DNA from: Candidatus Aminicenantes bacterium
GTDB taxonomy: Bacteria > Acidobacteriota > Aminicenantia > Aminicenantales > Saccharicenantaceae
NCBI GenBank assembly: GCA_963773685.1
Contig: CAVZBY010000005.1
Coordinates: 72,709-136,708 of the forward strand
Reading direction: 5' to 3'
Length of the DNA: 64,000 bases
How positions within the stretch are numbered: position 1 is the first letter of the stretch; each line of letters opens with the position of its first letter. The translations under genes and the position numbers were made by a program. The notes below the pieces were generated by a model. It was not told the DNA's origin, ran no database searches, and saw only the letters and a program-made list of their open reading frames with translations. This document shows, one piece after another, positions 1-49,552 of the stretch.

Positions 1-444
1 GAAGGGATTGCCGCCGGCGTCGCCTTGCGGGAAGAATCCGTTCGGCGTCGAGAGGATGACGAAGCGCCTGGCCAGGCGTTCCATCTGAGCGATCAAAGCC
101 ACGGCCTCCTCCTCGTTCAGGTGCTCGATCACCTCAAGGGCCAGGACGCCGTCGAATGAGCCCGGACCGAACAGCTCCCCTATTTTGAGCACCGATATCT
201 GATGATACTCATCATGGATGCCCAGGGCGCAGCTGGCTTCGATGGCCGGGAGATGGCCGTCGACCCCGACCAGTCGGCCCGGCCGGACCCGGAGATGCCG
301 TACCGGCGAGTCGCGTCCGCAGCCCACGTCGAGCAGGCTTTCACACGATGGGCCTATGAGGCGATCCAGCTCCTTGACCAGGGGAGCCCGGGGCGAACCG
401 AAAAGGGCCATCCAGGCCTTGACGAGAAATGTCTTCGCGGACAT
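1..444 (-). CDS. class I SAM-dependent methyltransferase (C-terminus runs off the window start)
   Basis: Own translation of minus strand from ATG at 444-442: MSAKTFLVKAWMALFGSPRAPLVKELDRLIGPSCESLLDVGCGRDSPV... LDVGCG is SAM-binding motif I. The frame stays open to position 1; the ORF is absent from the track because no stop lies inside the window. Confidence 0.75.
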   Translation of the reverse strand, partial: MSAKTFLVKAWMALFGSPRAPLVKELDRLIGPSCESLLDVGCGRDSPVRHLRVRPGRLVGVDGHLPAIEASCALGIHDEYHQISVLKIGELFGPGSFDGVLALEVIEHLNEEEAVALIAQMERLARRFVILSTPNGFFPQGDAGGNPF

Positions 445-1561: not shown

Positions 1562-2845
1562 TTACTTTTTCAGGGCGTTCCGGCAATCGACGAAGGCCCG
1601 CCCGGAAGCCCGGATCCGTTCCCAATCGTAGGCGGCATGATCGGTCACGATCATCACGCAATCCGCCTTCCGAAGGGTCGCGTCCGTCGGCTCGGCGAAC
1701 GGAACGTCGAGTCCGGCGGCGGCGAGCGAGGCCACGAACGGATCATGATAGCTGACGTCGGCGCCCAGCTTTTTCAGCAGCTTGATGATATCGAGCGCCG
1801 GGCTCTCGCGCAGGTCGTCGATATCGGGCTTGTAGGTCACCCCCAGGACCAGGACCCGGCTCCCGTTGACGGCCTTCTTCGCGGCGTTGAGGACGTCGAC
1901 GACCCTCTCGACCCAATAGGCCGGCATATGGCGGTTGATCTCCTCCGCCAGCTGGACGAACCGGGCGTTGTAATCGAGCGTTCTCAGCTTCCAGGAGAGA
2001 TATCCGGGATCGAGCGGGATGCAGTGGCCGCCGACCCCGGGGCCGGGGGTGAACTTCATGAAGCCGTACGGCTTGGTCGCGGCGGCCCCGATGACCTCCC
2101 AGGCGTCAAGGCCAAGCTTGTCGCACATGAGGAGGACCTCGTTGGCCAGCGCGATATTGACGGCCCGGAACGTGTTCTCGAGGAGCTTGGCCATTTCGGC
2201 CGCGGCGACGGAGCTGACCGGGACGGTCCTTTCGGTGACATGGGAATAGAGCGCCGTCGCGACCTCGAGGCAGGCCGGGGTGACGCCTCCGACGATCTTC
2301 GGGGTCGTCTTCAGGGTGAAGTCCTTGCGGCCGGGATCGGTGCGCTCGGGCGAGAAGGCCACGAAGACCTCCCGGCCCACGGCTAGGCCGCTCGCGGCGA
2401 CCTTGGGAAGGATGATCTCATCGGTCGTACCGGGGTAGGTCGTGCTCTCCAGGACGATGAGCATTCCGGGGTGGACGTGGCGGGCGACCATGTCGACGGC
2501 CGCGATCACGTAGGATAGGTCTGGATCGTGGGTCTTCGAAAGGGGGGTCGGAACGCAGATGGAGACGGCGTCGCAGCCGGCCAGAACGCCGAAATCCGTC
2601 GTCGCCTTCAATTTTCCCGAGGGGACCGTTTCTGCCAGATCGCCCGCCGGCACGTCGATGACATAGGAGCGGCCGGCGTTGAGCTCGGCGACCTTGCGCT
2701 CGACGACGTCGATGCCGAACGTCGGAAAGCCCGACCGGGCGAATCCCACGGCCAGGGGCAATCCGACGTATCCGAGCCCGATCACGGCGACACGGGCCTT
2801 GCGGGACTCGATCCGGGCTAAGAGATCCTTGCGTTCTTGACTCAT
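1562..2845 (-). CDS. nucleotide-sugar dehydrogenase (UDP-glucose/GDP-mannose dehydrogenase family; WbpA/WecC-like UDP-N-acetyl-hexosamine dehydrogenase)
   Basis: 427 aa with N-terminal VAVIGLGYVGLPLAV NAD fold, a GGHCIP catalytic-Cys motif and family-typical length. Confidence 0.9.
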   Translation of the reverse strand: MSQERKDLLARIESRKARVAVIGLGYVGLPLAVGFARSGFPTFGIDVVERKVAELNAGRSYVIDVPAGDLAETVPSGKLKATTDFGVLAGCDAVSICVPTPLSKTHDPDLSYVIAAVDMVARHVHPGMLIVLESTTYPGTTDEIILPKVAASGLAVGREVFVAFSPERTDPGRKDFTLKTTPKIVGGVTPACLEVATALYSHVTERTVPVSSVAAAEMAKLLENTFRAVNIALANEVLLMCDKLGLDAWEVIGAAATKPYGFMKFTPGPGVGGHCIPLDPGYLSWKLRTLDYNARFVQLAEEINRHMPAYWVERVVDVLNAAKKAVNGSRVLVLGVTYKPDIDDLRESPALDIIKLLKKLGADVSYHDPFVASLAAAGLDVPFAEPTDATLRKADCVMIVTDHAAYDWERIRASGRAFVDCRNALKK

Positions 2846-3507
2846 GGGACAACCTTTCTCGGCCTTCCTCGGGGCCTGACCGTGAGATTCCTGTTCAAGG
2901 AGCCCTCCAGGGCCCGGATGAACTCCCGGTCCCCGCAGGGCTTCCCCGTCTTCATATTCTTCCGGAGGGCTTCGATCGCCGCGGGATCGCCGGGGCCTCT
3001 CAGATAGGCGGCCCAGTCATCGACCTGGAGGTTGATCGGGCAGGGGGGCCGGAGGACGGGGTCGTCCGCGCCGGAGGAGTGGCTCCGGGCGCTCGACCAC
3101 GGATAGGCCGGGGCTTCATCGACGAGGCGCCAGCGGAGGGGGTTCGTTTCGACGAAGCGTACGGCCTCATAGGCGTGGGGCCCGTCGAGGATGGAGGAAT
3201 AGAAACGCCCCTGCCAGAGATGCCCACGGACGTTTCGTTTCAGGTTCATATACTGGGCGTAGCGCATGTGGAGGGCATTGAACGTCCGCCCCAGGCCGGT
3301 TTCCGTACGGGGAACGCAGATGTGATGGACGTGGTTCGGCATCAGGCAGTAGGCCAGTATCGTGACGCCGAACCGGCGGCCGTATTCGGCGAGCCATTCG
3401 AGATAGCGCTCGTAATCGCCGGCGTCCTCGAAGACGCGATGGCCATAGTTCCCGTACTGGAGCACGTGATGGGGGAGTCCCGGCGCGACCGTGCGTGATG
3501 TGCGCAT
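2842..3507 (-). CDS. IS200/IS605-like Y1 (HUH) transposase family protein, RAYT-like (COG1943-type), possibly inactive
   Basis: 221 aa with the HUH motif in LMPNHVHHICVP, then HLWQGRFYS and the C-terminal helix AVRFVETNPLRWRLV...YPWSSA. The stop overlaps the downstream dehydrogenase start as ATGA (2842-2845). Confidence 0.8.
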   Translation of the reverse strand: MRTSRTVAPGLPHHVLQYGNYGHRVFEDAGDYERYLEWLAEYGRRFGVTILAYCLMPNHVHHICVPRTETGLGRTFNALHMRYAQYMNLKRNVRGHLWQGRFYSSILDGPHAYEAVRFVETNPLRWRLVDEAPAYPWSSARSHSSGADDPVLRPPCPINLQVDDWAAYLRGPGDPAAIEALRKNMKTGKPCGDREFIRALEGSLNRNLTVRPRGRPRKVVP

Positions 3508-19710: not shown

Positions 19711-19810
19711 CCGTGGGCCTGTAGCCGCAGGCTTTAGCCTGCGTCTTATCTTGTACCCGCGGACCTAAGCCTGCGTCTTCAAGAGCTCAGGCTGAAATCT
19801 GAGACTTCAT
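19706..19810. repeat. REP cluster (one partial, one good, two degenerate copies)
   Basis: tgtagccgtggg (partial); tGTAGCC-GCAGGC-TTTA-GCCTGC-g at 19720-19748; ttgtacccgcggacctaagcctgcgtcttc at 19751-19780; gctcaggctgaaatctgagacttcat at 19785-19810. Confidence 0.75.
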
Positions 19811-19815
19811 TGCTC

Positions 19816-19851
19816 CTGTCTCGCTTGTCTCGCACATCTCGCCTGTCCCGC
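19816..19851 (-). repeat. tandem 9-nt array (GCGAGAC-NN) x4
   Basis: Plus strand reads ctGTCTCGC ttGTCTCGC acATCTCGC ctGTCCCGC. Confidence 0.8.
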
Positions 19852-19860
19852 GCCTCGGCG

Positions 19861-19889
19861 TTGCCGGGTTCCTTTAAATGTATTATTAT
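19861..19889 (+). promoter_or_regulatory. candidate sigma70-type promoter of the LPS-kinase gene
   Basis: TTGCCG (19861-19866), 17-nt spacer, TATTAT (19884-19889), 30 nt before the ATG at 19919. The -35 box is in 9-nt register with the upstream array. Confidence 0.4.
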
Positions 19890-19918: not shown

Positions 19919-20815
19919 ATGACCAACGAAAAACAACGAACTGTCGGCCTCCAAGCGCCCGAGCCGACGGACGATTCCCCGCGGCAGGGCCCGCCGGCCT
20001 TCGCCGCCGTCGATATCGTCCTCGGAGCCTATCACGGCGCTTTGAATCCCGATATCGACGCGCCCGCGTTCCGCTCCGCCCTGGCCCACCCTGCGGCCCT
20101 CGCTGAAGGCCCTTCCGCCCGCGTCCTCCTCGACCGGCGCAATCTCGTGGCGGTCGCCTCCGTCCCCGCCGGGCCCTCCGGCCGCGCCGACGCCGTCGTC
20201 AAGATGTTCCGCGTCTCGGGCTTCAAGCGTCTCAAAACGCTCCTCGTCCCCGGCAAGGCCGCCCGCGCCTGGCGCGGGGCCTTAGCCTGCCGCGCCCGCG
20301 CGGTCCCGACGCCCCTCCCCATGGCCTACCTCGAGCGCCGCGTCCGCGGCTTCGTCGTCGAGGGCTTCTACCTTTCCGCCTACCTTCCCGACGCCGTCGA
20401 GATCCGGTCGCTTCTCCGCGAGCTTCCGCCCGACGATCTCGGCCGGCTCCTCGCCGGGCTGGCGAAGTTCCTCGTCTTCTGCCATAACGAGGGGATCCTC
20501 CACCGCGATCTCTCGGACGGGAATATCCTCGTCCGCTCGCCCCGGCCGGGCGCCTACGACCTCTGGCTCATCGATACGAACCGCATCCGCGTCCGGCGCT
20601 CGATCCCCGTCCTCGTCCGTCTCCGGAACCTCGTCCGGCTGGGCGTCCCCGCCGCCTACCAGGACCTTTTCCTCCGCTGTTACCTCGGCGACAGCCGCGC
20701 CTCCCGGGCCCTCTTCCTCTGGTACCGGGCGAACAAAGCCTGGTATTCCGGCGTCATCGCCCTCAAGAGGAAGCTCCGCCTGCGCCGTCTCGCCGAGCGC
20801 CTCGGGATCCAGTGA
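19919..20815 (+). CDS. lipopolysaccharide kinase family protein (Kdo/WaaP/InaA-like)
   Basis: 298 aa with the kinase catalytic loop ILHRDLSDGNILV and LWLIDTNR; sits in an LPS-core gene context. Confidence 0.7.
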   Translation: MTNEKQRTVGLQAPEPTDDSPRQGPPAFAAVDIVLGAYHGALNPDIDAPAFRSALAHPAALAEGPSARVLLDRRNLVAVASVPAGPSGRADAVVKMFRVSGFKRLKTLLVPGKAARAWRGALACRARAVPTPLPMAYLERRVRGFVVEGFYLSAYLPDAVEIRSLLRELPPDDLGRLLAGLAKFLVFCHNEGILHRDLSDGNILVRSPRPGAYDLWLIDTNRIRVRRSIPVLVRLRNLVRLGVPAAYQDLFLRCYLGDSRASRALFLWYRANKAWYSGVIALKRKLRLRRLAERLGIQ

Positions 20816-24312: not shown

Positions 24313-27300
24313 TTACTCGTACTCCGCCCAATGGCGGATCTTGAGGTCGCCGACCTTCCGGGCCGCGAGCGCGGCCGCGAACAGCTCTGCGATCTGGAGG
24401 TTGGTCAGGAGGGGCACGGCGAAATCCACCGCCATCCGCCGCATCCGGTAGTCGCTGTCGAACTCGCGCTTCCGGTCGGGATCCGGGACGGAGATGACGA
24501 AGTCGACGGCGCGGCGGGCGATCAGGTCGCGGATGTTGGGCTCCTTGGTCTCGTGGACCTTGAAGACCCGCGTGTTGGGGACGCCGTTCTTCCTGAGGAA
24601 GGCGCTCGTCCTCTCCGTCGCGTACAGGGCCAGTCCCATGTCCCGGAGCCGCTCCGCCGACCGCAGGAACCGGTGCTTGGACTCTTCGCCGCCGATGCTG
24701 ACCAGGATGGACCGCTCCGGCAGGCTGAACCCGGCCGAGATGAGCGCCTTGAGGAAGGCCTCGTGAACGTCCTCGCCCAGGCAGGCGACCTCGCCCGTCG
24801 AGGCCATCTCGACGCCCAGGGCCGGATCGGCGCCCTTGAGCCGGGAGAACGAGAACTGCGGCGCCTTGACCCCGACGTAGTTGAGGTCGAGTGTCGTCTT
24901 CCGGTTCCGGACCGGCGCGCCCATCATCGCCCGGACGGCGACGTCGATGAAGTTGGTCTTGGCGACCTTCGACACGAACGGGAACGACCGGGACGCCCGG
25001 AGGTTGCACTCGATGACCTTGAGGACGTTGTCCTTGGCGATGAACTGGATGTTGAACGGCCCGGTGATTTCGAGGGCCTTGGCGATGCGGCCGCCGATCC
25101 CGCGGATGCGGCGGATGGTCTCGATGTAGAGCTTCTGCGGCGGCAGGACCATCGTCGCGTCGCCGGAGTGAACGCCGGCGTTCTCGATGTGCTCGACGAT
25201 GGCCGAGGCGACGACCTCGCCCCGGTCGGCGACGGCGTCCATCTCGATCTCCTTGCCGTTGAGGATGAACTTCGAGATGACGACCGGGTACTCGGGAGAG
25301 ACGAGCGACGCCTTCTTCAGGTATCGCTCGAGGTCCCGCCCGTTGAAGACGATGGTCATCGCGGCGCCGCTCAGGACGTAGGAGGGCCGGATGAGGACGG
25401 GGTAGCCGATGGACCGGGCGAAGGTCCCGGCCTCGGCGACGCTCCGGAGCTCCTTCCATTCCGGCTGGTCGACGCCCAGCTCGTCCAGGAGCTTCGAGAA
25501 CTTGTAGCGGTTCTCGGCCCGGTCGATGCTCTCCGGCGCCGTCCCCAGGACGCGGAGACCCGCCCGCCGGCATTTCATGGCGATGTTGTTCGGGATCTGC
25601 CCGCCCATCGCCAGCAGGACGCCGCGCGGGTCCTCGCGCTCGTAGATGTCGCAGACGCGCTCGAAGCTCAGCTCGTCGAAGTACAGCCGGTCGCAGATGT
25701 CGTAGTCGGTCGACACGGTCTCCGGGTTGTAGTTGACCATGACGGTCGTCGCGCCCATCCGCCGGAGGGCCTCGGCGGCGTTGACGCAGCACCAGTCGAA
25801 CTCGACCGACGAGCCGATGCTGTAGGAGCCCGAGCCGAGGACCATGACCTTGTTCTTGTCCGGCCGGAAGGCGACGTCGTCCGTGTCGCCCCCGTACGTC
25901 ATATAGAGGTAATTGGTCTTCGCGGGGTACTCGGCGGCCAGGGTGTCGATCTGCTTGACGCACGGCACGATGCCGGCCCGCTTCCGCGCCCGGCGCACCG
26001 CCGCCTCGTTCGAGCGGACGCAGAGGGCGACCTGCTTGTCGGAGAACCCCTTCCGCTTGGCCTCGCGGAGGAGCTCCGCGGGGAGCGTCGCCAGCCGGTG
26101 CTCCTTGAGCTTCGCCTCGACGGCCACGACCGACTTGATCTTATGGAGGAACCAGCGGTCGATCCGCGTCAGCTCGTGGACCCGGTCGACCGACCAGCCC
26201 TTGGCGAACGCCTCGGCGATGCCGAACAGCCGCTCGTCGGTCGGATGGCGCAGCTCCCGCTCGAGGCTGGCGAACGAGTAATTGGCGTTGGCGACGAGGC
26301 CGTACACGCCGATCTGGAGCATCCGGGCGGCCTTCTGGACCGCTTCCTCGAACGAGCGGCCGACGGCCATGACCTCGCCGACCGATTTCATCTCCGAGCC
26401 GATCTTCTTCGACACCCGGCCGAACTTCTTGAGGTCCCAGCGCGGGATCTTGACGACGAGGTAATCGAGGGCCGGCTCGAAGCAGGCCGTCGTGGCCCGG
26501 GTGATGGAGTTCCGGAGCTCCGGCAGGGTCCGGCCGAGGATGAGCTTGGCCGCGACGAAGGCCAGCGGATAGCCCGTCGCCTTCGAGGCCAGGGCCGAGC
26601 TCCGCGACAGGCGCGCGTTGACCTCGATGATGCGGTAGTCGCCGTCGGCCGGGTTCAGGGCGTACTGGATGTTGCACTCGCCGACGATGCCGAGGTGGCG
26701 GACGGCCCGGATGGCGATCTCGCGGAGGCCGTGGTACTCGGCGTTGGTCAGCGTCTGCGACGGGGCGATGACGATGCTCTCGCCCGTGTGGATGCCCATG
26801 GGGTCGAAGTTCTCCATGTTGCAGACCGTGACGCAGTTGTCGGCCCGGTCGCGGACGACCTCGTATTCGATCTCCTTCCAGCCCTCCAGGTACTCCTCGA
26901 CGAGGACCTGGCCCGCGCCGACGAAGGCCCGTTCGAGCGCCTCGCGGAGCTCCTTCGGGTCGTGGGAGATGCCGCTGCCCTTGCCGCCCAGGGCATAGGC
27001 CGCCCGGGCCATCACCGGATAGCCGATCTTCTCGGCGGCCTTCAGTCCCTCGTCGATGCTCCCGACGGCGACGCCCGCGCGGCGTCTTGAGGCCGATCTC
27101 GGCCAGGGCCCGGTTGAAGAGCTCCCGGTCCTCGGTCTTCTCGACGGCCTCCATCGGCGTCCCGAGCACCCGCGTCCCGGCGCGGGATAGGGTCCCGGAC
27201 CTCCACAGGGCGAGACCGCAATTGAGGGCGGTCTGGCCGCCGAACGATACGACGATGCCGTCCGGCCGCTCCCGCTCGATGATCCGGGCGACGAAATACG

Positions 27301-27556
27301 GCGTCACGGGCAGGAAGTAGATGCGGTCGGCCAGCGATTCGGAGGTCTGGATGGTCGCGATGTTCGGGTTGACCAGGACGACCTCGAGGCCCTCCTCCTT
27401 GAAGGCCTTGATGGCCTGGCTCCCGGAGTAGTCGAATTCTCCGGCCTCGCCGATCTTCAGGGCGCCGCTCCCGAGGATGAGGACCTTCCGGGGGGCCGGC
27501 GCCGGGGAGCCGGCGGGCTTGGAGGTCTTTCGCGTCTTCGTCCTGCGCGCGGTCAC
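24313..27556 (-). CDS. carB: carbamoyl-phosphate synthase large subunit, interrupted by a frameshift near 27074-27077
   Basis: The GTG start at 27556 overlaps the carA stop (GTGA). N-terminus ...[26 protein letters not shown]... is read in the frame of ORF 26141-27940. The remaining 900 aa are in ORF 24313-27015. The junction reads [35 protein letters not shown] after removing 1 nt; the total is about 1081 codons. Confidence 0.95.
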
Positions 27557-28617
27557 GGCAGGGCCTCCAGGAAGCGATCGAAGAGGAACGCGGTGTCGGT
27601 CGGCCCCGGGCAGGCTTCGGGGTGGAACTGGACGCCGGCGAAGGGCTTCCGGCCGTGGCGGACGCCCTCGTTCGTCCCGTCGTTGGCGTTCGTGAACCAG
27701 GGCCGCCAGCCCCGCGGGAGCGTCCGCGTATCCACGGCATAGCCGTGGTTCTGGCTCGTGATGTAACAGCGCTCGGTTCCGTCCTCGAGGCACGGCTGGT
27801 TCTGGGAGCGGTGGCCGAACTTGAGCTTGAACGTGTCGCCTCCCGCGGCCAGGGCGAGGATCTGGCTGCCCAGGCAGATACCGAAGAGAGGGACGTTCGC
27901 GCGCATGAGCCGGCGGACCGTGCGGATGACCTCGACGCATCGTTTGGGGTCGCCCGGGCCGTTCGACAGCACGACGCCGCGGGGGGCGAACGACATGATC
28001 TTGGCGAACGGGGTCGAGGCCGGGACGCGGACGACGCAGGCATCCCGCCGGACGAGGCTCCGGACGATATTCTCCTTGGCGCCGCAGTCGAGGAGGACCA
28101 CGGCCTTCGGGGAGTCGGGGTTGAGGATGTGGATGTCGCGGGTGGTGACTTCGGCCACGAGGTCCCGCTTGTTCGGATCGGGGAGGGCCCGCGCTTCGCG
28201 CAGGAAGGGGGCGACCCGGAACGGGGCGTCGGCGACGGCCAGAACCCCGGGCATGACGCCGTGAACGCGGAGCTTCTTCGTCAGGGCCCGGGTATCGATG
28301 CCCTCGATGCCGGGGACCCCGGATTCGCGGAGCCAGGCGTCAAGGGTCTTGCGCGAGGTGGCGTGCGACGGCCTTTCGCAGAGCTCGGCGACGGCGTAGC
28401 CGGCGATCTGCGGCCGCGGGGACTCGAAGCTCGCCGGGTCGACGCCGTAGTTCCCGATCTGGGGGTAGGTCTGGACGAGGAGCTGGCCGCGATAGGAAGG
28501 GTCGGTGATGGACTCGGGGTAGCCGACCATGCCCGTATTGAAAACGACTTCCCCCCAGGCTTTGGCGCTCGCGCCGAATCCCCGGCCTTCGAAGACGGTC
28601 CCGTCCGCGAGGGCCAA
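27553..28617 (-). CDS. carA: carbamoyl-phosphate synthase small subunit (glutamine amidotransferase)
   Basis: 354 aa: [13 protein letters not shown]..., the GATase triad region [10 protein letters not shown], and HGYAV. The only start available after the in-frame stop is TTG, ATT or ACG. Confidence 0.93.
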
Positions 28618-28676: not shown

Positions 28677-28694
28677 GCGAGACAGGCGAGACGG
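28677..28694 (+). repeat. tandem 9-nt array (GCGAGAC-NN) x2
   Basis: GCGAGACag GCGAGACgg, upstream of carA. Confidence 0.7.
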
Positions 28695-28710
28695 GAGGGC
28701 CGGGGCGGAT

Positions 28711-28738
28711 TGTAGCCGCAAGCTAAAGCCCGAGGCTC
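28711..28738 (+). repeat. REP element (diverged hairpin)
   Basis: tGTAGCC-GCAAGC-TAAA-GCCCGAGGC. Confidence 0.6.
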
Positions 28739-28773
28739 AGCGCGGGGCTTGCTTTTCTTGAGGAGGCTTTTAC

Positions 28774-28807
28774 CTGGCTCGCGTCTCGCGAGTCTCGCTA
28801 GTCTTGC
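28774..28807 (-). repeat. tandem 9-nt array (GCGAGAC-NN), about 4 units, one shortened to 7 nt
   Basis: Plus strand reads ctGGCTCGC GTCTCGC gaGTCTCGC taGTCTTGC. It overlaps the stop and last codons of the DUF1573 gene. Confidence 0.7.
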
Positions 28808-29588: not shown

Positions 29589-29617
29589 ATAATCGCATAC
29601 TTAGAAGGGCGAGACAA
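29589..29617 (-). promoter_or_regulatory. candidate sigma70-type promoter of the DUF1573 gene
   Basis: Minus strand: TTGTCT (29617-29612, part of the last 9-nt repeat unit), 17-nt spacer, GATTAT (29594-29589). Confidence 0.4.
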
Positions 29618-29644
29618 GCGAGGCTGGCGAGACAAGCGAGACTG
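29609..29644 (+). repeat. tandem 9-nt array (GCGAGAC-NN) x4
   Basis: GCGAGACaa GCGAGGCtg GCGAGACaa GCGAGACtg. Confidence 0.85.
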
Positions 29645-29736: not shown

Positions 29737-29754
29737 GTGTCTCGCTCGTCTCGC
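29737..29754 (-). repeat. tandem 9-nt array (GCGAGAC-NN) x2
   Basis: Plus strand reads gtGTCTCGC tcGTCTCGC. Confidence 0.7.
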
Positions 29755-29764
29755 ATCACATAGC

Positions 29765-29792
29765 TTGCGATTTCGCCGATTCTTGATATCAT
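29765..29792 (+). promoter_or_regulatory. candidate sigma70-type promoter of the usp gene
   Basis: TTGCGA (29765-29770), 16-nt spacer, TATCAT (29787-29792). The RBS GGAAGGAGG precedes the ATG at 29820. Confidence 0.4.
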
Positions 29793-42380: not shown

Positions 42381-42401
42381 GTCCTTGAAGCTCCCCCCCT
42401 C

Positions 42402-42462
42402 CCGTCTCGATACTCTCGTCAATCTCGCTCGAATGGGGAGGCGCCAGTCTCGCGCGTCTCGC
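42402..42462 (-). repeat. tandem 9-nt array (GCGAGAC-NN), 3 + 2 units split by 16 nt
   Basis: Plus strand reads ccGTCTCGA taCTCTCGT caATCTCGC -16 nt- caGTCTCGC gcGTCTCGC. Confidence 0.7.
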
Positions 42463-42469
42463 TTGATGA

Positions 42470-42499
42470 TAGACACGGGCGGCGGGCTGGTGATAAAAT
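42470..42499 (+). promoter_or_regulatory. candidate sigma70-type promoter of eno
   Basis: TAGACA (42470-42475), 18-nt spacer ending in TGa, TAAAAT (42494-42499). The RBS GAGGAG precedes the ATG at 42536. Confidence 0.4.
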
Positions 42500-43819: not shown

Positions 43820-43921
43820 TCGGCTGCCGGATCTTCGCGCCGGACTCGCAGCCGTCGGCTCAGCCCATAACCGCAGTAGCCGGATTGCCTATGAAAGGTA
43901 GTCTCAGGCTTGGCTGTGAAC

Positions 43922-43976
43922 TGTAGCCGCAGGCTTCAGCCTGCGTCTTAGCTCAGGCTAAAGCCTGAGGCTACAT
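43922..43976. repeat. REP inverted doublet
   Basis: tGTAGCC-GCAGGC-TTCA-GCCTGC-g (43922-43945), then gCTCAGGC-TAAA-GCCTGAG-GCTACat (43951-43976). Confidence 0.85.
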
Positions 43977-44029
43977 CAGGATAAAGCCAAGACCCAAATA
44001 TGAGGCGGGGTTCGGCCCTTAGGCTCGGC
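43951..44029 (+). repeat. copy A of an approximately 80-bp direct duplication (REP plus a 48-bp tail)
   Basis: gctcaggctaaagcctgaggctacatcaggataaagccaagacccaaatatgaggcggggttcggcccttaggctcggc. It matches 44144-44223 with scattered mismatches. Confidence 0.8.
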
Positions 44030-44037
44030 CAATCTAC

Positions 44038-44061
44038 TGTAGCCGCAGGCTTTAGCCTGCG
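44038..44061 (+). repeat. REP element
   Basis: tGTAGCC-GCAGGC-TTTA-GCCTGC-g, followed by the hairpin CCCCCC-tttcctaaa-GGGGGG (44068-44088) and a G7 run. Confidence 0.85.
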
Positions 44062-44107
44062 CAATTTCCCCCCTTTCCTAAAGGGGGGTGGGGGGGATTT
44101 GCCCGGA

Positions 44108-44131
44108 ACTCAAGCTGAAATCTGAGGCCAT
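44108..44131 (-). repeat. degenerate REP copy
   Basis: aCTCAAGC-TGAAA-TCTGAG-GCCAt. Confidence 0.5.
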
Positions 44132-44143
44132 GACAAGGCAAGA

Positions 44144-44223
44144 ACTCAGGCTTAGGTCTGAGGTTACATTAGGACATAGCCAAGACCCAAATATGAGGCG
44201 GGGTTCGGACCCTTAGTCTCGGC
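44144..44223 (+). repeat. copy B of the approximately 80-bp direct duplication (REP plus a 48-bp tail)
   Basis: actcaggcttaggtctgaggttacattaggacatagccaagacccaaatatgaggcggggttcggacccttagtctcggc. Confidence 0.8.
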
Positions 44224-44264
44224 ATTATTGCTTTCTATCGGTGAGTTCAAACCAGAAAAATCGC

Positions 44265-44294
44265 TTGACAGAGCCATTTCTGTAGTGGTATATG
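44265..44294 (+). promoter_or_regulatory. candidate sigma70-type promoter of the Rrf2 regulator gene
   Basis: TTGACA (44265-44270), 18-nt spacer ending in TGg, TATATG (44289-44294). Confidence 0.5.
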
Positions 44295-44307
44295 ACATTG
44301 TCGATTG

Positions 44308-44323
44308 AATTAGTCGACTAATT
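44308..44323. promoter_or_regulatory. perfect 16-bp palindrome, candidate operator (Rrf2 autoregulation?)
   Basis: AATTAGTCGACTAATT, located between the predicted -10 box and the ATG at 44336. Confidence 0.5.
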
Positions 44324-44335
44324 AGGCCAAGCGAA

Positions 44336-44770
44336 ATGAAACTATCGACCAAGGGCGAATACGCGAGCCGGGCGATGCTGGAGCTTGCCCTCAAGTATGA
44401 CCGGGGGCCCCAGCATATCATCAAGATCTCCCGGGCCCAGGCCATCCCCCAACGGTTCCTCGAACAGATCCTGCTCCTCCTCAAGAGGGCGGGCTATCTC
44501 AAGAGCAAGAAGGGCCCGAAGGGCGGCTATTACCTGGCGAAACCCCCCGCCGAGATCAATGTGGCCGAGGTCATCCGGGTCCTCGAAGGCCCCCTCGCCC
44601 CCATCGATTGCGTCAGCGTCATGGCCCACGAGCCGTGCCCGATGGAGGCGACCTGCGGCCTGCGCTGGCTGTGGAAGGATGTCCGGGACTCGGTGGCGGA
44701 GATCCTGGAGCGGACGACCTTCGCCGATCTCGTCCGGCTGAACGGTCCCATCAATGATCCGGATGAATAA
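44336..44770 (+). CDS. Rrf2-family transcriptional regulator (IscR/CymR-like, three-Cys cluster-ligand pattern)
   Basis: MKLSTKGEYASRAMLELA..., an HTH region (ISRAQAIPQRFLEQILLLLKRAGYLKSKKGPKGGYYLA), and Cys-x8-Cys-x5-Cys (DCVSVMAHEPCPMEATCG). Confidence 0.9.
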   Translation: MKLSTKGEYASRAMLELALKYDRGPQHIIKISRAQAIPQRFLEQILLLLKRAGYLKSKKGPKGGYYLAKPPAEINVAEVIRVLEGPLAPIDCVSVMAHEPCPMEATCGLRWLWKDVRDSVAEILERTTFADLVRLNGPINDPDE

Positions 44771-44775
44771 AAGAT

Positions 44776-44811
44776 GCGAGACGGGCGAGACAAGCGAGAG
44801 AAGCGAGACGA
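44776..44811 (+). repeat. tandem 9-nt array (GCGAGAC-NN) x4
   Basis: GCGAGACgg GCGAGACaa GCGAGAGaa GCGAGACga, starting 6 nt after the Rrf2 stop. Confidence 0.85.
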
Positions 44812-44866
44812 GAGGCCCATTAGGGCATTTTTTGGAGAATGACTGATGGTCGGTGCGGGTTCGAAA

Positions 44867-44929
44867 TGTAGTCGCAGGCTTCAGCCTGCGTTTTAAAAAG
44901 AAGCCTCAGGCTGAAGCCTGAGGCTGCAT
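44867..44929. repeat. REP inverted doublet
   Basis: tGTAGTC-GCAGGC-TTCA-GCCTGC-g (44867-44890), then GCCTCAGGC-TGAA-GCCTGAGGC-TGCAt (44903-44929). Confidence 0.8.
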
Positions 44930-44943
44930 GAAGGAAGCTCGAG

Positions 44944-45963
44944 ATGAGGAGGAACCAGATGAACCGGATGATGCGGACGAAGAGGCTGGGGGCGGCGGCG
45001 GCGATGCTACTGCTTCTCGCGGGCGCGGCCTTCGCCCAGGACAAGGAAAAGGACAAGAAGGAATCTCCTTCCCTGGCCATCAGCAAGGCCTTCAAGCTCA
45101 GCGGCTGGACCCAGGTCCAGTACGTGGATTGGAAGACCGGGATGGACAGTTTCTCGGTCCGGCGGTCGCGACTGACCTTGAGCGGCGACATCATGAAGAA
45201 CATGCACTACAAGATCCAGATGGACATCGCCAAGACCCCGACCCTCCTCGACGCCAGCGTGGACTACGAGTTCTCCAAGGCCGTCCAGCTCCGGGTCGGC
45301 CAGTTCATGGTCCCTTTCAGCCTCGAGAACGTGACGGGCACCTCGGACATCGACATGATCAACCGGTCCCAGCCCGAGGAAAAGCTCGTCCCCGGCCGCG
45401 ATAACTCCGCCCAGGGCCGTGACGTCGGTGTTTCGGTCTTCGGGACATATTCCGTCGTCGATTACACCGCGGCCATCCTCAACGGAGCCGGGATCAACAA
45501 GGCCGACACGAACAGCCACAAGGACCTGGCCGGACGCGTCGTCTTCCGGCCTATCGACCACCTGGCGGTCGGCGGCTCCGTTTATCTGGGCAAGCAGAGC
45601 GCTGCCGCGGAGGCCCCGCTCGTCAAGCGCGACAAGGCCGGACTCGAGCTCGCCCTGGTCTATCCCCGCGCCTCGCTCAAGGCGGAGTACTACTTCGCCA
45701 AGGACGACACGATCTCCCGGGACGGCTGGTACGTCCAAGGCGGGTACTTCGTCCTCCCCAAGAAGGTCCAGGTCCTTCTCAAGGCCGACGCCCTCGATAT
45801 GAACCGGGACCTCGACGGCGACCGGATCAACCGGTATTCGGCCGGCGTCAACTGGTTCATCGCCGGCCGGACGAAGCTCCAGGTCAATTACGAGATCTAC
45901 GACGGCGAGCTCGAGAAGAACGACAACCACGCCATCCTGGCCCAATTCCAGGTGGCGTTCTGA
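44944..45963 (+). CDS. phosphate-selective porin O/P family outer-membrane protein
   Basis: Signal peptide ...AAAMLLLLAGAAFAQ; LSGWTQVQY...RRSRLTLSG...VGQFMVPFSLE; terminal F. The more likely start is the ATG at 44959, which follows the RBS GAGGAGG. Confidence 0.8.
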   Translation: MRRNQMNRMMRTKRLGAAAAMLLLLAGAAFAQDKEKDKKESPSLAISKAFKLSGWTQVQYVDWKTGMDSFSVRRSRLTLSGDIMKNMHYKIQMDIAKTPTLLDASVDYEFSKAVQLRVGQFMVPFSLENVTGTSDIDMINRSQPEEKLVPGRDNSAQGRDVGVSVFGTYSVVDYTAAILNGAGINKADTNSHKDLAGRVVFRPIDHLAVGGSVYLGKQSAAAEAPLVKRDKAGLELALVYPRASLKAEYYFAKDDTISRDGWYVQGGYFVLPKKVQVLLKADALDMNRDLDGDRINRYSAGVNWFIAGRTKLQVNYEIYDGELEKNDNHAILAQFQVAF

Positions 45964-45997
45964 GAGGCGGTCCCGGACCGCGAATAAGGAGAGCATC

Positions 45998-46966
45998 ATG
46001 AAGAAAGCGTTCGTCGCGGCCCTCGCGGCCGTATCCCTGCTGGCCCCCGCGGCCGGCGTGTCCTTCGGGCAGTCCGGAAGCCCCGTTTCCGGCAACCTCA
46101 GCCTCTCAGGAGCCTGGGCCCTCTACCCGATGGCCCTGAAGTGGGTCGAGGAGTTCCAGAAGCTCCATCCGGGCGTCCGGATCGACGTCCAGGCCGGCGG
46201 CGCGGGCAAGGGCATCGCCGACGCCCTGGCGGGCATGGTGGACGTCGGCATGGTCTCCCGCGAGATCAATCCGGCCGAGCTCGAGAAGGGCGCGTTCGCC
46301 GTCGCCGTCACCAAGGACGCCGTGGTTCCCACCCTCAGCGCCCGGCACCCGCTCCTCAAAGAGCTCCTGGCGCGGGGCCTCAAGAGAGAGGAGTTCATCG
46401 GACTCTGGATCACGAAGACCGTCACGTCCTGGGACGCCCTTCTCGGCCGCAAGGGCAAGGCCGAAGCCCACGTCTATACGCGGTCCGACGCCTGCGGCGC
46501 GGCCGAGACCTGGGCCGCTTACATGGGGAAGAAGCAGGAGGACCTCGGCGGGGTCGGCGTTTACGGCGATCCCGGCCTGGCCGACGCGGTCAAGAGGGAC
46601 CCGCTCGGGGTCGGATTCAACAACGTGAACTTCGCCTACGACGCCAAGAGCCTCAAGCCCGTCGCGGGCATCGTCATCCTTCCCATCGATCTCGACGGGA
46701 ACGGGAAGATCGACCCGGCCGAGAGCGTTTACGCGACGCGGAACGACGTCACGAAGGCCATCGCGGACAACGTCTATCCGTCGCCGCCCGCCCGGGACCT
46801 CTATTTCGTCACCAAGGGCAAGCCGGCGAAGCCGGCCCTCGTCGCGTTCCTGAAGTGGGTCCTGACGGAAGGCCAGAAATACGTTCCGGAAACCGGCTAC
46901 ATCCCCCTGAGCGAGGCCAAGCTGGCGGAAGGGCTGGACAAGATCGGGGCGGCTGGGGCAAAATAA
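45998..46966 (+). CDS. pstS: phosphate ABC transporter substrate-binding protein
   Basis: Signal peptide, GSGAG-like region (QAGGAGKGIADALAGMVDVGMVSRE), 322 aa, upstream of pstCAB. Confidence 0.88.
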   Translation: MKKAFVAALAAVSLLAPAAGVSFGQSGSPVSGNLSLSGAWALYPMALKWVEEFQKLHPGVRIDVQAGGAGKGIADALAGMVDVGMVSREINPAELEKGAFAVAVTKDAVVPTLSARHPLLKELLARGLKREEFIGLWITKTVTSWDALLGRKGKAEAHVYTRSDACGAAETWAAYMGKKQEDLGGVGVYGDPGLADAVKRDPLGVGFNNVNFAYDAKSLKPVAGIVILPIDLDGNGKIDPAESVYATRNDVTKAIADNVYPSPPARDLYFVTKGKPAKPALVAFLKWVLTEGQKYVPETGYIPLSEAKLAEGLDKIGAAGAK

Positions 46967-46973
46967 GCGGACC

Positions 46974-47860
46974 ATGAGGCTCTTCAAGGACGTCTTCGCC
47001 AGGAAGACGATGTTCCTGGTGACGCTCGTTCCGAGCGTCCTGGTCCTGCTCATCATCTTCGGGCTCTACCAGAAATCCAAGGCGCTCCTGGGGCTCAAAT
47101 CCCTGGGGACGCTCCTCTTTTCCACGACCTGGTCGCCGCTCAAGGGCGAATTCGGCTTCCTGCCCTTCATCATGGGCACCCTGTGGGTGACGGCCGTCGC
47201 CCTGGTCATCGCCATCCCCGTCTCCCTGTTCACGGCCATCTATCCTCTCGGAGTACGCCCCGAAGGTCTTCCGGGAGCTCGCCAAGCCGGTCATCGACCT
47301 GCTCGCCGGCATCCCCTCGGTCGTCTTCGGGGTTTGGGGCATCATGGTCATCGTCCCCTTCGTCGGCAACGTCCTGGCCCCGCTCTTCGGCGTCTACTCC
47401 AGCGGCTACAGCATCCTGGCCGGCGGCATCGTCCTGGCCATCATGATCTTCCCGACCATCATCCACGTCTCGCTCGAGGTTTTTGCCTCGATCCCCGTCG
47501 CCCTCCGGGAAACGTCCCTCTCCCTCGGCGCGACCCGGTGGGAGACGGTCCGCCACGTCGTCCTCCGGAAGGGCGCCCAGGGGATCCTGGCCGCGGCCAT
47601 CCTCGGCCTGTCCCGGGCGTTCGGCGAAACCATGGCCGTGCTCATGGTCGTCGGCAACGTCCCCTTGGTCCCCAAGTCCCTGTTCCAGCCCGGATACCCC
47701 CTGCCGGCCCTCATCGCCAACAATTACGGGGAGATGATGTCCATCCCCCTCTATGACTCGGCCCTGATGCTGGCCGCCCTGGTCCTTCTCGCCGTCGTCC
47801 TTGTCGCCAGCATCCTCGGGCCGCTGGATCCTGGTCAAGGCGGAACGGAGGGCCGAATGA
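46974..47860 (+). CDS. pstC: phosphate ABC transporter permease PstC, interrupted by a frameshift at about 47244 and probably a second at about 47821
   Basis: ...VSLFTAIY / [32 protein letters not shown]... (EAA-type permease). After removing one C near 47821 the C-terminus reads ...[16 protein letters not shown], with the TGA at 47858-47860 overlapping the pstA ATG (ATGA). Confidence 0.8.
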
Positions 47861-48736: not shown

Positions 48737-48750
48737 GAGACAGGTAAGCC

Positions 48751-49516: not shown

Positions 49517-49552
49517 GCGAGGCGGGCGAGACGCGCGGGACAGGCGAGACGC
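49517..49552 (+). repeat. tandem 9-nt array (GCGAGAC-NN) x4
   Basis: GCGAGGCgg GCGAGACgc GCGGGACag GCGAGACgc, starting 5 nt after the pstB stop. Confidence 0.8.

What the first reader, a model, noticed from the sequence alone, without database searches (positions are those of the whole stretch)
19816..19889. 9-nt arrays abut, and are in register with, -35-like boxes of predicted promoters
In four loci the array lies just upstream of a gene on the strand where it reads TTGTCTCGC, and a sigma70-like promoter can be placed at its downstream edge. At 19861, TTGCCG-17-TATTAT keeps exact 9-nt register with the array (LPS kinase gene). On the minus strand at 29617-29589, TTGTCT-17-GATTAT uses the last repeat unit itself as the -35 box (DUF1573 gene). 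At 29765, TTGCGA-16-TATCAT lies 10 nt after the array (usp). At 42470, TAGACA-18-TGaTAAAAT lies 8 nt after the array (eno). The fifth upstream array (28677, upstream of carA) has the same orientation, but I could not place a well-spaced -35/-10 pair at its edge. The repeat unit TTGTCT resembles the -35 consensus TTGACA. The arrays could therefore be stacked -35-like or activator sites that tune strong housekeeping promoters. The three remaining arrays (28774, 44776, 49517) sit at gene 3' ends and point back into the gene, so they could instead drive antisense transcription or act in 3' UTRs.
Basis: inference. Interest (0 to 1): 0.6.

Follow-up and report, generated by a model that had tools for sequence, protein, structure and literature searches.

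The report
REP-linked 9-nt arrays at gene edges
The 9-letter repeats that were read as stacked promoter boxes are one module of a fast-multiplying family of intergenic repeats whose "head" always faces the nearest gene end (a promoter, or more often a stop codon or tRNA end), so they are not -35 boxes and their function is still open.

Summary
The abutment is not chance. Genome-wide, 7 of 68 arrays are followed 6-12 nt later by a consensus TTGACN-17-TANNNT promoter, against 0.1 expected.

The reading as in-register -35 mimics does not hold:
- The constrained part of the unit is (G)TCTCGC. The two leading bases are only "pyrimidine".
- Offsets to the -35 box vary from 6 to 12 nt.
- The LPS-kinase-like, usp and eno promoters are conserved in congeners that have no array there.
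- 38 of 68 arrays face a gene 3' end, often 0-7 nt from a stop codon or about 10 nt from a tRNA end.

All arrays are polar. The head is nearer a gene in 53 of 68 cases, and inverted neighbours are tail-to-tail 10:0. The tail side carries decayed units and a REP hairpin in fixed orientation (27:2). Array and REP numbers rise together within the genus, and a RAYT-like transposase ortholog is found in the same subclade.

The same heptamer arrays occur in distant phyla. I read this as a new REP-linked, STRR/TAACTGA-like mosaic repeat, probably protein-bound. One promoter (DUF1573) plausibly uses the last unit as its -35 box.

The parts
19816..19851 (+). Array of 4 units (CTGTCTCGC TTGTCTCGC ACATCTCGC CTGTCCCGC), plus a decayed fifth unit up to 19860. 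The head faces the promoter of the LPS-kinase-like gene.
   Evidence: The array is absent at the orthologous site in G002 and G007, where the promoter is conserved.
19861..19889 (+). Promoter-like TTGCCG-17-TATTAT of the gene 19919-20815.
   Evidence: 9/12 match. Conserved in G007 and G002, which have no array here.
19720..19750 (+). REP element (GTAG plus hairpin GCAGGCT-TT-AGCCTGC plus TCTT) on the tail side of the array. Here it has the minority relative orientation.
   Evidence: The scanner flags it as terminator-like.
28677..28692 (-). Array of 2 units plus decayed units. The head faces the carA promoter, whose extended -10 TGCTATACT lies on the minus strand at 28670-28662.
   Evidence: An array is present at this site in G002, G005 and G006, with 2-3 units.
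28776..28807 (+). Array of about 4 units (GGCTCGC GTCTCGC GTCTCGC GTCTTGC). The head faces, and overlaps, the 3' end of the DUF1573 gene. The stop codon (CTA on the plus strand, 28798-28800) lies inside the array.
   Evidence: Present in G002, not seen in G005 or G006.
29609..29642 (-). Array of 4 units. Its last unit, TTGTCTCGC, supplies a -35-like TTGTCT for the DUF1573 promoter (TTGTCT-17-GATTAT, 29617-29589). The gene start is at 29568.
   Evidence: The array and the 17-nt spacing are conserved in G005 (4 units) and G007 (2 units).
29737..29754 (+). Array of 2 units. The head lies 10 nt upstream of the usp promoter TTGCGA-16-TATCAT (29765-29792).
   Evidence: A 2-unit array is also present in G006. 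It is absent in G002, G005 and G007, where the promoter is conserved.
42404..42462 (+). Three decayed units plus two perfect units. The head lies 7 nt upstream of the eno promoter TAGACA-18-TGaTAAAAT (42470-42499). A class-B leader-like sequence lies at 42381-42403.
   Evidence: G002, G005, G006 and G007 keep the promoter without the array.
44776..44809 (-). Array of 4 units. The head lies 5 nt after the rrf2 stop codon (TAA, 44768-44770). REP hairpins follow on the tail side at 44865-44930.
   Evidence: G002 has 3 units, G007 only decayed units, and G005 and G006 have none.
49517..49550 (-). Array of 4 units. The head lies 4 nt after the stop codon (TGA, 49510-49512) of the pstB-like ABC ATPase gene. 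The tail runs into the class-B leader GCGAGGTCGGTCAAGGCATC.
   Evidence: G002 has 1 unit. G005, G006 and G007 have none. G000 carries about 190 extra nt relative to G007.
2842..3507 (-). Gene for a RAYT-like Y1 (HUH) transposase. It is the candidate mobiliser of the REP family that is linked to the arrays.
   Evidence: PF01797, 45 bits. NF047646, 48.8 bits, below its cutoff of 80. Orthologs at 70-82% identity occur only in G002, G005 and G007.

Best explanation
The 9-nt arrays are one module of a mosaic intergenic repeat family. The family is linked to REP elements, resembles BIMEs and STRRs, and has recently amplified in this Aminicenantes lineage.

A full module, read 5' to 3', has four parts:
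- a REP hairpin in a fixed orientation;
- about 20 nt of 'leader' that looks like decayed units (class A GGCTTCATCGAGCCTCTT, class B GCCTTGAMCGWCCCTCYY);
- 2-6 units of YY-GTCTCGC;
- a pyrimidine/T-rich end.

The 'head' end lies flush against whatever functional element bounds the spacer. That element can be the -35 or -10 box of a promoter, a stop codon, or a tRNA 3' end.

Shown:
- the polarity of the arrays;
- the linkage to REP and the shared amplification;
- rapid gain, loss and change of unit number, while the neighbouring promoters stay conserved;
- growth both by 9-nt units and by copying of 44-96-nt [leader+array] modules next to an existing unit;
- stronger constraint on the heptamer than on the 2-nt spacer.

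Inferred:
- Each heptamer is a contact site for a sequence-specific DNA-binding factor that binds the arrays multivalently. The inference rests on three points: the arrays occur in both orientations relative to transcription, they have no RNA structure, and the same heptamer is reused in distant phyla.
- The arrays are not -35 boxes. Promoter abutment follows from their edge-seeking polarity. Occasional co-option does occur, with the DUF1573 promoter as the example.
For: - Periodicity and family size: 102 arrays, of which 68 have at least 3 units.
- 59 of 68 arrays are intergenic.
- The head is nearer a gene than the tail in 53 of 68, p=4e-6.
- Neighbouring inverted arrays are tail-to-tail 10 times and head-to-head 0 times.
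- 16 of 38 3'-facing heads lie -1 to +7 nt from a stop codon. Others lie about 10 nt from tRNA 3' ends.
- A conserved leader and decayed in-register units occur on the tail side only.
- A REP lies within 150 nt of the tail in 30 of 68 arrays and of the head in 5 of 68.
- The relative orientation of REP and array is 32:7 overall. It is 27:2 among arrays with a REP in only one orientation, and this holds in all four gene contexts.
- Array dimers per genome: G000 71, G002 22, G005 17, G006 8, G007 7, and 0 in G001, G003 and G004.
- REP copies per genome: 263, 44, 34, 8, 51, and 1, 0 and 6 in the same order.
- The RAYT-like ortholog is restricted to the same subclade.
- Promoters are conserved without arrays in congeners.
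- A module was inserted next to a single seed unit at C5:179496.
- Leave-one-out conservation of the core is 75-95%, against 45% T / 41% C at the spacer.
- No RNA structure: z about 0. No Rfam match.
- The same arrays occur in genomes whose enolase is only 60-67% identical, with the same head-to-gene layout.
Against:
- The tight 6-12 nt spacing to consensus -35 boxes (p=2e-11) fits a real promoter-upstream function as well as it fits edge-packing.
- Arrays are enriched at consensus-like promoters.
- Arrays are retained at the carA and DUF1573 promoters, which lack a good -35 box, in 6 of 6 congener sites with data.
- The polarity itself is not explained by simple selfish spread.
- Arrays in other phyla are not obviously REP-linked.
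- Gene calls came from my own crude ORF caller. Individual distances can be off, especially at gene starts.
- Congeners are not independent samples.
Confidence: 0.5

Rival explanations
1. The arrays are a polar boundary element. A protein bound to them presents one face, on the head side, to RNA polymerase. Upstream of a promoter it recruits polymerase or insulates the promoter. Just past a stop codon or tRNA end it acts as a roadblock, or, together with the REP hairpin on its tail side, as an 'exit' terminator for polymerase leaving the gene.
For: - One rule covers both classes: the head faces the gene at 5' and 3' ends.
- A polymerase moving outward from a gene meets the array first and then a REP in its GTAG-to-T-rich orientation, which looks like a terminator.
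- Heads are flush with stop codons and tRNA ends.
- The spacing to the -35 box is tight.
- The heptamer is constrained.
- The same layout appears in other phyla.
Against: - No candidate protein is known.
- Arrays are gained and lost freely between genomes that are 88-99% identical, while the genes and promoters persist.
- Only about 5% of consensus promoters carry one (7-10 of 156).
- No dedicated sequence-specific roadblock-terminator protein is known in bacteria (background knowledge).
- Unit spacing of 9 bp puts successive sites on different helix faces.
Confidence: 0.22
2. The arrays are stacked -35-like or activator sites that tune strong promoters, and arrays at 3' ends drive antisense transcripts.
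For: - The abutment is significant.
- Arrays are enriched at consensus promoters.
- At the DUF1573 promoter the last unit gives TTGTCT at 17 nt from GATTAT in three genomes.
- Arrays are retained at the carA and DUF1573 extended -10 promoters.
- Hexamers resembling a -10 box are enriched just past the heads of 3'-type arrays: 4.5 against 1.4 bits, p=1.5e-5.
Against: - The TT of the unit is not conserved.
- Distances from head to -35 box (6-12 nt) and from head to -10 box (1-14 nt) are variable.
- Three of the five in-window promoters are conserved without arrays in relatives.
- Most arrays are at 3' ends, where a promoter would have to lie inside coding sequence.
- The genes served are diverse.
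- The arrays co-amplify with REPs.
Confidence: 0.13
3. The arrays are amplified arms of former bidirectional intrinsic terminators (A-tract, GCGAGAC, loop, GTCTCGC, T-tract). Their loops were later filled by REPs. Heads point outward because they are the outer ends of the two stem arms.
For: - Inverted pairs are tail-to-tail only (10:0).
- The head flank is T-rich, YYTTYTWW.
- In G005 the tRNA-rplU spacer holds a minimal hairpin, GCGAGGC-TCTCAT-GTCTCGC-TCTTCTTT, at the site where G000 has outward-facing arrays at the two ends of a much longer spacer.
Against: - Short-loop GCGAGRC-N3-10-GYCTCGC hairpins are no more frequent than the reversed-pattern control in 31 related genomes. None with a T-tract was found in G000.
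- About 43 of 53 array-bearing spacers have only one arm.
- Spacer bases of paired arms are not complementary (read).
- Arrays also lie between divergent promoters.
Confidence: 0.08
4. The arrays act at the RNA level, as multivalent binding sites in 3' UTRs or antisense RNAs. This was proposed for the TAACTGA repeats.
For: - Many arrays lie between a stop codon and a terminator-like REP, so they would be transcribed as (GCGAGACRR)n.
- The sequence is unstructured.
Against: - In tandem-gene spacers the array takes either orientation relative to the flanking genes (12 against 18), so there is no single RNA sense.
- 5'-type arrays lie upstream of promoters.
- There is no Rfam match.
Confidence: 0.05

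Closest known systems
REP elements and BIMEs (bacterial interspersed mosaic elements) mobilised by RAYT transposases
   Same: - The genome holds an abundant GTAG-plus-hairpin REP: 263 copies at up to 2 mismatches, about 90% intergenic.
- It also holds a RAYT-like Y1 transposase.
- The arrays are joined to REPs in fixed relative orientation and co-amplify with them, like the extra-REP motifs of BIMEs.
   Different: - The known BIME motifs are single sequences between alternating REPs. They are not tandem 9-nt arrays.
- No head-to-gene polarity has been described for BIMEs.
- Modules can spread without a REP.
- Similar arrays occur in other phyla without an obvious REP.
TAACTGA heptamer direct repeats of Beggiatoaceae, cyanobacteria and Bacteroidetes, and cyanobacterial STRR sequences (MacGregor 2015, PMC4679880)
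   Same: - There are dozens to hundreds of intergenic sets of 2-6 tandem copies of one short unit.
- Related units are not amplified.
- The distribution across phyla is patchy and has no evident vector.
- The adjacent genes are diverse.
- The function is unknown.
   Different: - The unit here is 7+2 nt and GC-rich.
- TAACTGA sets lie mostly a few nt upstream of start codons, in the sense orientation. These arrays lie upstream of promoters or just past gene 3' ends, with the head facing the gene.
- These arrays are linked to REPs.
Operator arrays of ribbon-helix-helix repressors: MetJ met-boxes (2-5 tandem 8-bp boxes) and the omega repressor heptads of pSM19035 (7-10 heptads, direct or inverted). 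From established knowledge, not tested here.
   Same: - Contiguous short direct repeats are present in variable number at promoters.
- Each unit would be one protein contact, bound cooperatively.
- Both direct and inverted arrangements occur.
   Different: - Those arrays define small regulons and overlap promoters.
- Here there are about 100 sites, most of them at gene 3' ends, with rapid turnover.
- No cognate protein has been identified.
Sigma-70 -35 hexamer and UP element
   Same: - Arrays occupy roughly -42 to -80 of several consensus promoters.
- TTGTCT matches TTGACA at 4 of 6 positions.
- At one promoter (DUF1573) the last unit sits at a conserved 17-nt spacing from the -10 box.
   Different: - The TT is not conserved and the conserved bases are TCTCGC.
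- The sequence is GC-rich, whereas UP elements are A/T-rich.
- The spacing is variable.
- Promoters persist without arrays in congeners.
MITEs that carry promoter or terminator activity (for example Neisseria Correia elements). From established knowledge.
   Same: - They are small non-autonomous intergenic repeats next to genes.
- They show presence/absence polymorphism between close relatives.
- Their flanks are AT-rich, and here TA often lies within 0-6 nt of the head.
   Different: - No terminal inverted repeats of unique sequence were found.
- No consistent target-site duplication or clean empty site was found.
- Growth is by tandem units and by module duplication.

Membership tests
Sigma-70 -35 box (stacked copies) | T1, T2 and G3 of TTGACA are the best-conserved positions. 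| tested here: not met
   Unit positions 1-2 are 45-47% T and 40-42% C. G3 is 75-86%. TCTCGC is 76-98%.
Sigma-70 -35 box (stacked copies) | Fixed spacing of 16-18 nt from a unit's TTG hexamer to a -10 hexamer. | tested here: not met
   In my reading of the head-flank sequences, the distance from last core to -10 box is 1-14 nt in eight cases, and only two have the 14 nt needed. The requirement is met and conserved at DUF1573 only.
Promoter-upstream activator or UP-type site | Located at a defined distance upstream of the -35 box. | tested here: inconclusive
   Seven arrays end 6-12 nt before a consensus -35 box, against 0.1 expected. However, only 7-10 of 156 consensus promoters have one, and 38 of 68 arrays face 3' ends.
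Promoter-upstream activator or UP-type site | Conserved together with its promoter in relatives. | tested here: not met
   The LPS-kinase-like, usp and eno promoters are conserved without the array in at least two congeners each. The carA and DUF1573 arrays are retained.
REP/BIME mosaic element | A REP consisting of GTAG plus an imperfect palindrome, in high copy number and extragenic. | tested here: met
   263 copies at up to 2 mismatches. Of 162 hairpin-pattern hits, 90% are intergenic.
REP/BIME mosaic element | A RAYT (Y1/HUH transposase) is present in the genome. | tested here: inconclusive
   PF01797 scores 45 bits, above its cutoff. NF047646 scores 48.8 bits, below its cutoff of 80. The gene is not visibly flanked by REPs.
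REP/BIME mosaic element | The extra motif is physically joined to REPs in a regular arrangement. | tested here: met
   A REP lies on the tail side of 30 of 68 arrays and on the head side of 5 of 68. The relative orientation is 27:2. Copy numbers co-vary across 8 congeners.
Dispersed short tandem direct repeats (STRR / TAACTGA type) | Many intergenic sets of 2-6 tandem copies of one short unit, with a patchy distribution across phyla. | tested here: met
   102 sets in G000. Trimer matches in five distant genomes are 39, 12, 15, 20 and 3, with reversed-pattern controls at 0. Their enolase is 60-67% identical.
Dispersed short tandem direct repeats (STRR / TAACTGA type) | Position just upstream of start codons, in the sense orientation. 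| tested here: not met
   Arrays lie upstream of promoters or past 3' ends.
MITE | Terminal inverted repeats, a target-site duplication and clean empty sites. | tested here: not met
   Filled and empty comparisons show no duplication and ragged boundaries. In one case the flanks share only the unit itself.
Intrinsic terminator | A GC-rich hairpin directly followed by a U-tract. | tested here: not met
   Arrays with their leader have no excess structure, z about 0. Short-loop arm pairs are at control level. The head flank is T-rich but rarely reaches 5 T in 8 nt.
Known structured RNA families (Rfam 15) | A covariance-model match. | tested here: not met
   No hit at gathering thresholds in the window. 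Nothing at the arrays up to E=10.
RHH-type operator arrays (MetJ / omega) | A cognate repressor binds each unit. | not testable with these tools
   No candidate protein could be singled out. This needs pull-down or EMSA experiments.

The most novel reading that the evidence does not exclude
GTCTCGC-N2 arrays are a cross-phylum, orientation-dependent 'gene-edge' element. An unidentified, horizontally shared DNA-binding factor coats the array. With its head-side face it touches RNA polymerase, helping or insulating promoters at 5' ends and stopping polymerase at 3' ends. This would be a bacterial counterpart of eukaryotic Reb1/TTF-I-type promoter-proximal and terminator sites.
Probability: 0.2. 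Interest if true: 0.8.

Novelty: new variant of a known kind. Interest (0 to 1): 0.5.

Why it matters
If the reading holds, three points follow.

- Promoter-looking repeats in high-GC metagenome-assembled genomes should not be annotated as regulatory boxes without comparative checks.
- REP/RAYT systems can carry tandem-array modules with a strict head-to-gene polarity. That property has not been described for BIMEs or STRRs.
- The same heptamer array has spread, or arisen repeatedly, in Aminicenantes, Syntrophobacterales-like bacteria, Lentisphaeria, Holophagales and Nitrospira. This points to a shared recognition factor worth finding.

The polarity rule gives a concrete question that can be tested: what senses the edge of a gene at both its ends?

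Tried and rejected
- Rfam at gathering and at permissive thresholds gave nothing at the arrays.
No TSS or 3'-end data were obtained.
- A literature search by the sequence strings returned only primers.
- RNA folding of leader plus array on both strands gave z about 0.
- The terminator-arm origin was tested. Short-loop hairpins are at control level in 31 relatives and absent in G000.
- Array and REP orientation was compared with GC skew. The skew is too weak and the result was not significant.
- A phage vector was considered. Only 8 hits were found in 2.9 million viral contigs.
- A MITE with a TA target was considered. TA is frequent near heads, but the empty sites give no duplication.
- A regulon reading was considered. 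The downstream genes are diverse.
- Coding or leader-peptide readings were considered. The class-A leader contains GAGG-N4-ATG on the opposite strand, but class B lacks the ATG. Arrays also abut tRNA ends, so a link to translation was dropped.
- Earlier scan notes were consulted and added no tested evidence.
Full report
**What is at the coordinates**

- 19816-19851 holds four units: CTGTCTCGC, TTGTCTCGC, ACATCTCGC and CTGTCCCGC.
- A decayed fifth unit follows. TTGCCG-17-TATTAT then starts at 19861, exactly 45 nt from the array start.
- The other boxes are also present: TTGTCT-17-GATTAT on the minus strand (29617-29589), TTGCGA-16-TATCAT (29765) and TAGACA-18-TGaTAAAAT (42470).

A consensus scanner independently reports the promoters at 19861, 29765 and 42470. 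They are the only two hits in 10.5 kb and one of three hits in 8 kb. The DUF1573 box matches 8 of 12 positions and fails the scanner's threshold.

Pfam confirms carA, DUF1573, Usp, enolase, Rrf2 and an ABC ATPase. The 'LPS kinase' label rests on a sub-threshold Kdo hit. The DUF1573 start codon is at 29568.

**The repeat is a genome-wide family**

The window is G000:C5:72709-136708, from a 3.42-Mb, 64% GC, 14-contig MAG. Its enolase is closest to Candidatus Aminicenantes, at 81% identity.
- The exact core GTCTCGC occurs 759 times. Same-strand spacings are 9 nt x71, 18 x25 and 27 x9, and every other spacing occurs 3 times or fewer.
- Chaining cores in 9-nt register gives 102 arrays. Of these, 68 have at least 3 units: 33 with three, 27 with four, 7 with five and 1 with six.
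- With a home-made ORF and hexamer gene caller, 59 of 68 arrays are intergenic. The rest sit at called gene edges.

**Polarity is the main regularity**

I call the 3' end in the GTCTCGC orientation the 'head'.
- The head is closer to a gene than the tail in 53 of 68 arrays (binomial p=4e-6).
- Thirty heads face a gene 5' end and 38 face a 3' end.
- Of the 38 that face 3' ends, 16 lie -1 to +7 nt from the stop codon. Others lie about 10 nt from the 3' ends of tRNA genes. The link is therefore to gene ends, not to translation.
- Within one spacer, arrays on the left read GCGAGAC and arrays on the right read GTCTCGC. Neighbouring inverted arrays are tail-to-tail 10 times and head-to-head never.
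- In spacers between co-directional genes the array takes either orientation relative to those genes (12 against 18). No single RNA sense is favoured.

**The promoter association is real but is not a register**

For 5'-facing arrays the sequence past the head is strikingly promoter-like.
- Examples include CTTATAA-TTGACA-N17-TAGAAT, CCTTTTAA-TTGACA-N17-TACAAT and CTTAGA-TTGACA-N17-TATCAT. Among the array-adjacent promoters are two that lie upstream of tRNA genes and one upstream of rplU.
- A strict TTGACN-16..18-TANNNT follows 10 of 27 such arrays, against 156 of 1330 upstream regions in general (odds ratio 4.4, p=7.5e-4).
- Seven of the 68 arrays have the -35 box starting 6-12 nt after the last core, against 0.1 expected (p=2e-11). 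None has this on the tail side.
- The offsets are 6, 6, 6, 7, 8, 9 and 11 nt. In my reading of the flanks, only the LPS-kinase-like and rplU cases are in 9-nt register.
- In about eight further cases a -10 hexamer, often in extended form, follows the head at 1-14 nt by my reading. A unit can sit at the -35 position only when that distance is 14 nt.

The unit is not conserved like a -35 box.
- Positions 1-2 are 45-47% T and 40-42% C. Position G3 is 86%. TCTCGC is 85-98%.
- A leave-one-out estimate that removes detection bias gives 75-95% for the seven core positions.

**Comparison with congeners**

I compared orthologous spacers in G002, G005, G006 and G007. Their enolase is 91-95% identical to that of G000, and their DNA is 82-99% identical.

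| Site | State in congeners |
|---|---|
| LPS-kinase-like promoter | TTGCCG-17-TATTAT kept in G002 and G007; no array |
| eno promoter | T(T/A/G)GACA-N18-TGATAAAAT kept in G002, G005, G006 and G007; no array |
| usp promoter | kept in G002, G005 and G007 without array; G006 has two units |
| carA promoter (extended -10, no good -35) | array kept in G002, G005 and G006 |
| DUF1573 promoter (extended -10, no good -35) | array kept in G005 and G007, with last unit TTGTCT at a constant 17 nt from GATTAT |
| rrf2 3' end | units in G000/G002/G007/G005/G006: 4, 3, decayed, 0, 0 |
| pstB 3' end | units in G000/G002/others: 4, 1, 0 |
| tRNA 3' end (C5:159686) | G000: one 4-unit array flush with the tRNA end, plus two further same-orientation arrays of 3 and 2 units; G002, G005 and G007: 2, 1 and 1 units |

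At C5:179496, G002 has a single unit flush with the gene end. G000 has the same unit plus a 68-nt [flank + class-A leader + 4 units] module inserted between the unit and the gene. This shows copy-paste of whole modules next to a seed unit. Tandem higher-order repeats of 44-96 nt, each a leader plus an array, are also common.

**The tail side and the link to REP elements**

Upstream of the first unit lies a recurrent sequence of about 20 nt. Class A is GGCTTCATCGAGCCTCTT and class B is GCCTTGAMCGWCCCTCYY. It looks like decayed units. In-register unit-like 7-mers persist beyond the tail (15%, 9% and 6% at successive positions) but not beyond the head (7%, 0% and 0%). Background is 1.6%.

The genome carries a classic REP, GTAG plus the hairpin GCAGGCT-N2-4-AGCCTGC.
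- There are 263 copies at up to 2 mismatches. About 90% of the 162 hairpin-pattern hits are intergenic.
- A REP lies within 150 nt of the tail in 30 of 68 arrays and of the head in 5 of 68.
- Its orientation relative to the array is fixed: 32:7 overall, and 27:2 among arrays that have a REP in only one orientation. This holds in all four gene contexts. By contrast, REP orientation relative to genes is weak.

Copy numbers co-vary across the genus.

| Genome | G000 | G002 | G005 | G006 | G007 | G004 | G001 | G003 |
|---|---|---|---|---|---|---|---|---|
| Array dimers | 71 | 22 | 17 | 8 | 7 | 0 | 0 | 0 |
| REP copies | 263 | 44 | 34 | 8 | 51 | 6 | 1 | 0 |

A RAYT-like Y1 transposase gene lies in the window at 2842-3507(-).
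- It scores 45 bits on PF01797 and 48.8 bits on NF047646, which is below that model's cutoff.
- Orthologs at 70-82% identity occur only in G002, G005 and G007.

The arrays therefore behave as a module of a REP-associated mosaic that has recently amplified in G000.

**Beyond this genus**

An exact three-unit pattern hits more than 118 loci in the species collection. Many are coding Gly-Glu-Thr-type repeats, but several genomes carry multiple non-coding arrays.

| Genome | Lineage | Trimer matches |
|---|---|---|
| G041 | Deltaproteobacteria MAG Spart_124 | 39 |
| G042 | a second delta MAG | 12 |
| G043 | Lentisphaeria MAG | 15 |
| G044 | Holophagales UBA2201 | 20 |
| G045 | Nitrospira MAG | 3 |

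- Reversed-pattern controls give 0 in all five.
- Their enolases are only 60-67% identical to that of G000. The DNA around their arrays is about 50-70% GC. They are therefore truly distant.
- Heads again face gene 5' or 3' ends, and inverted arrays are tail-to-tail around an AT-rich centre.
- The tail motif CCGACCTC (GAGGTCGG on the other strand) is shared with G000's class-B leader.
- No phage vector is evident. There are only 8 hits in the viral collection.

**What the arrays are not**

- They match no Rfam family.
- They have no excess RNA structure on either strand.
- They are not MITEs with target duplications.
- They are not amplified arms of a common terminator hairpin. G005 has a neat GCGAGGC-TCTCAT-GTCTCGC-TCTTCTTT hairpin in the tRNA-rplU spacer. 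However, such short-loop pairs are at control level in 31 relatives and absent in G000.
- GC skew is too weak to test a replication-strand bias.
- The genes served are diverse, so there is no regulon.

**Interpretation**

The closest described things are two.
- BIMEs: REPs plus extra motifs, mobilised by a RAYT.
- STRR/TAACTGA families: dispersed tandem heptamers with a patchy cross-phylum distribution and unknown function.

This family differs from both. It has a 7+2-nt GC-rich unit, strict head-to-gene polarity, a link to REPs, and a position upstream of promoters or just past gene 3' ends.

I infer multivalent recognition by a sequence-specific DNA-binding factor, analogous to MetJ met-box or omega-heptad arrays (established knowledge, not tested here). 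Three observations lead to this:
- the heptamer is constrained while the spacer is free;
- the arrays work in either orientation relative to transcription;
- the same heptamer recurs in distant phyla.

Whether that binding has a host function is open. It could be promoter help or insulation at 5' ends, and roadblock or 'exit' termination together with the outward-oriented REP at 3' ends. Alternatively it could serve only the element. The tight spacing to -35 boxes and the retention at two promoters without a -35 box keep a promoter role alive. The free gain and loss at other promoters and the 3'-end majority argue that it is not the general rule.

**Limits**

- Gene calls are my own and are crude at start codons.
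- Congeners are related, so counts across them are not independent.
- Labels of MAGs from other phyla are those of the records. Their distance from G000 was checked with enolase only.
- No transcript data could be obtained.

Noticed in passing
window 19720-19750, 28708-28750, 43880-44330 (several copies), 44865-44930: An abundant REP family, TGTAGCCGCAGGCT-N2-4-AGCCTGCG(TCTT). It has 263 copies at up to 2 mismatches in G000 but only 0-51 in congeners, so it was recently amplified. The eno-rrf2 spacer is filled with about 500 nt of these elements, which G005 and G004 lack.
   Followed up: partly
window 2842-3507 (-): A RAYT-like Y1/HUH transposase gene (motif LMPNHVHHI) embedded in a polysaccharide-synthesis gene cluster. 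It is not visibly flanked by REPs. Orthologs occur only in the REP-rich subclade.
   Followed up: partly
window ~44140-44180; G000:C5:176700-179500; locus L091: A third repeat family, CCCCCC-TTT-N-AAAGGGGGG-(T)-GGGGGGATTT. It fills long spacers in G000 and G007. A near-identical copy lies in a Syntrophobacterales MAG next to GTCTCGC arrays. Several repeat families therefore seem to be shared across phyla.
   Followed up: no
G000:C5:154827-155077 (outside the window): A small conserved minus-strand ORF appears to read through an array, so the repeat would encode an Arg/Asp/Lys-rich C-terminal tail. Arrays contain no stop codon in any frame, which lets them extend ORFs. Longest-ORF calls also produce artefactual N-termini such as MSRLSRLSR.
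   Followed up: partly
window 28776-28807: The DUF1573 stop codon (CTA on the plus strand, 28798-28800) lies inside the array, so the last codons of the gene are array sequence.
   Followed up: partly
window 27042-28617 (-): The carA region shows two long overlapping minus-strand ORFs in different frames (27042-28043 and 27553-28617). This could be a frameshift or assembly error, or an unusual gene junction.
   Followed up: no
G000:C2:343048 and C11:33536: Two near-identical 4-unit arrays, with the same extended leader, follow the stop codons of two paralogous genes. The arrays were copied along with the gene duplicate.
   Followed up: no
window 44336-49512: The genes for Rrf2, a phosphate-selective porin and a pstB-like ABC ATPase lie on one strand and look like one operon. 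It is bracketed by a 3'-type array after rrf2 and another after the pstB-like gene.
   Followed up: no
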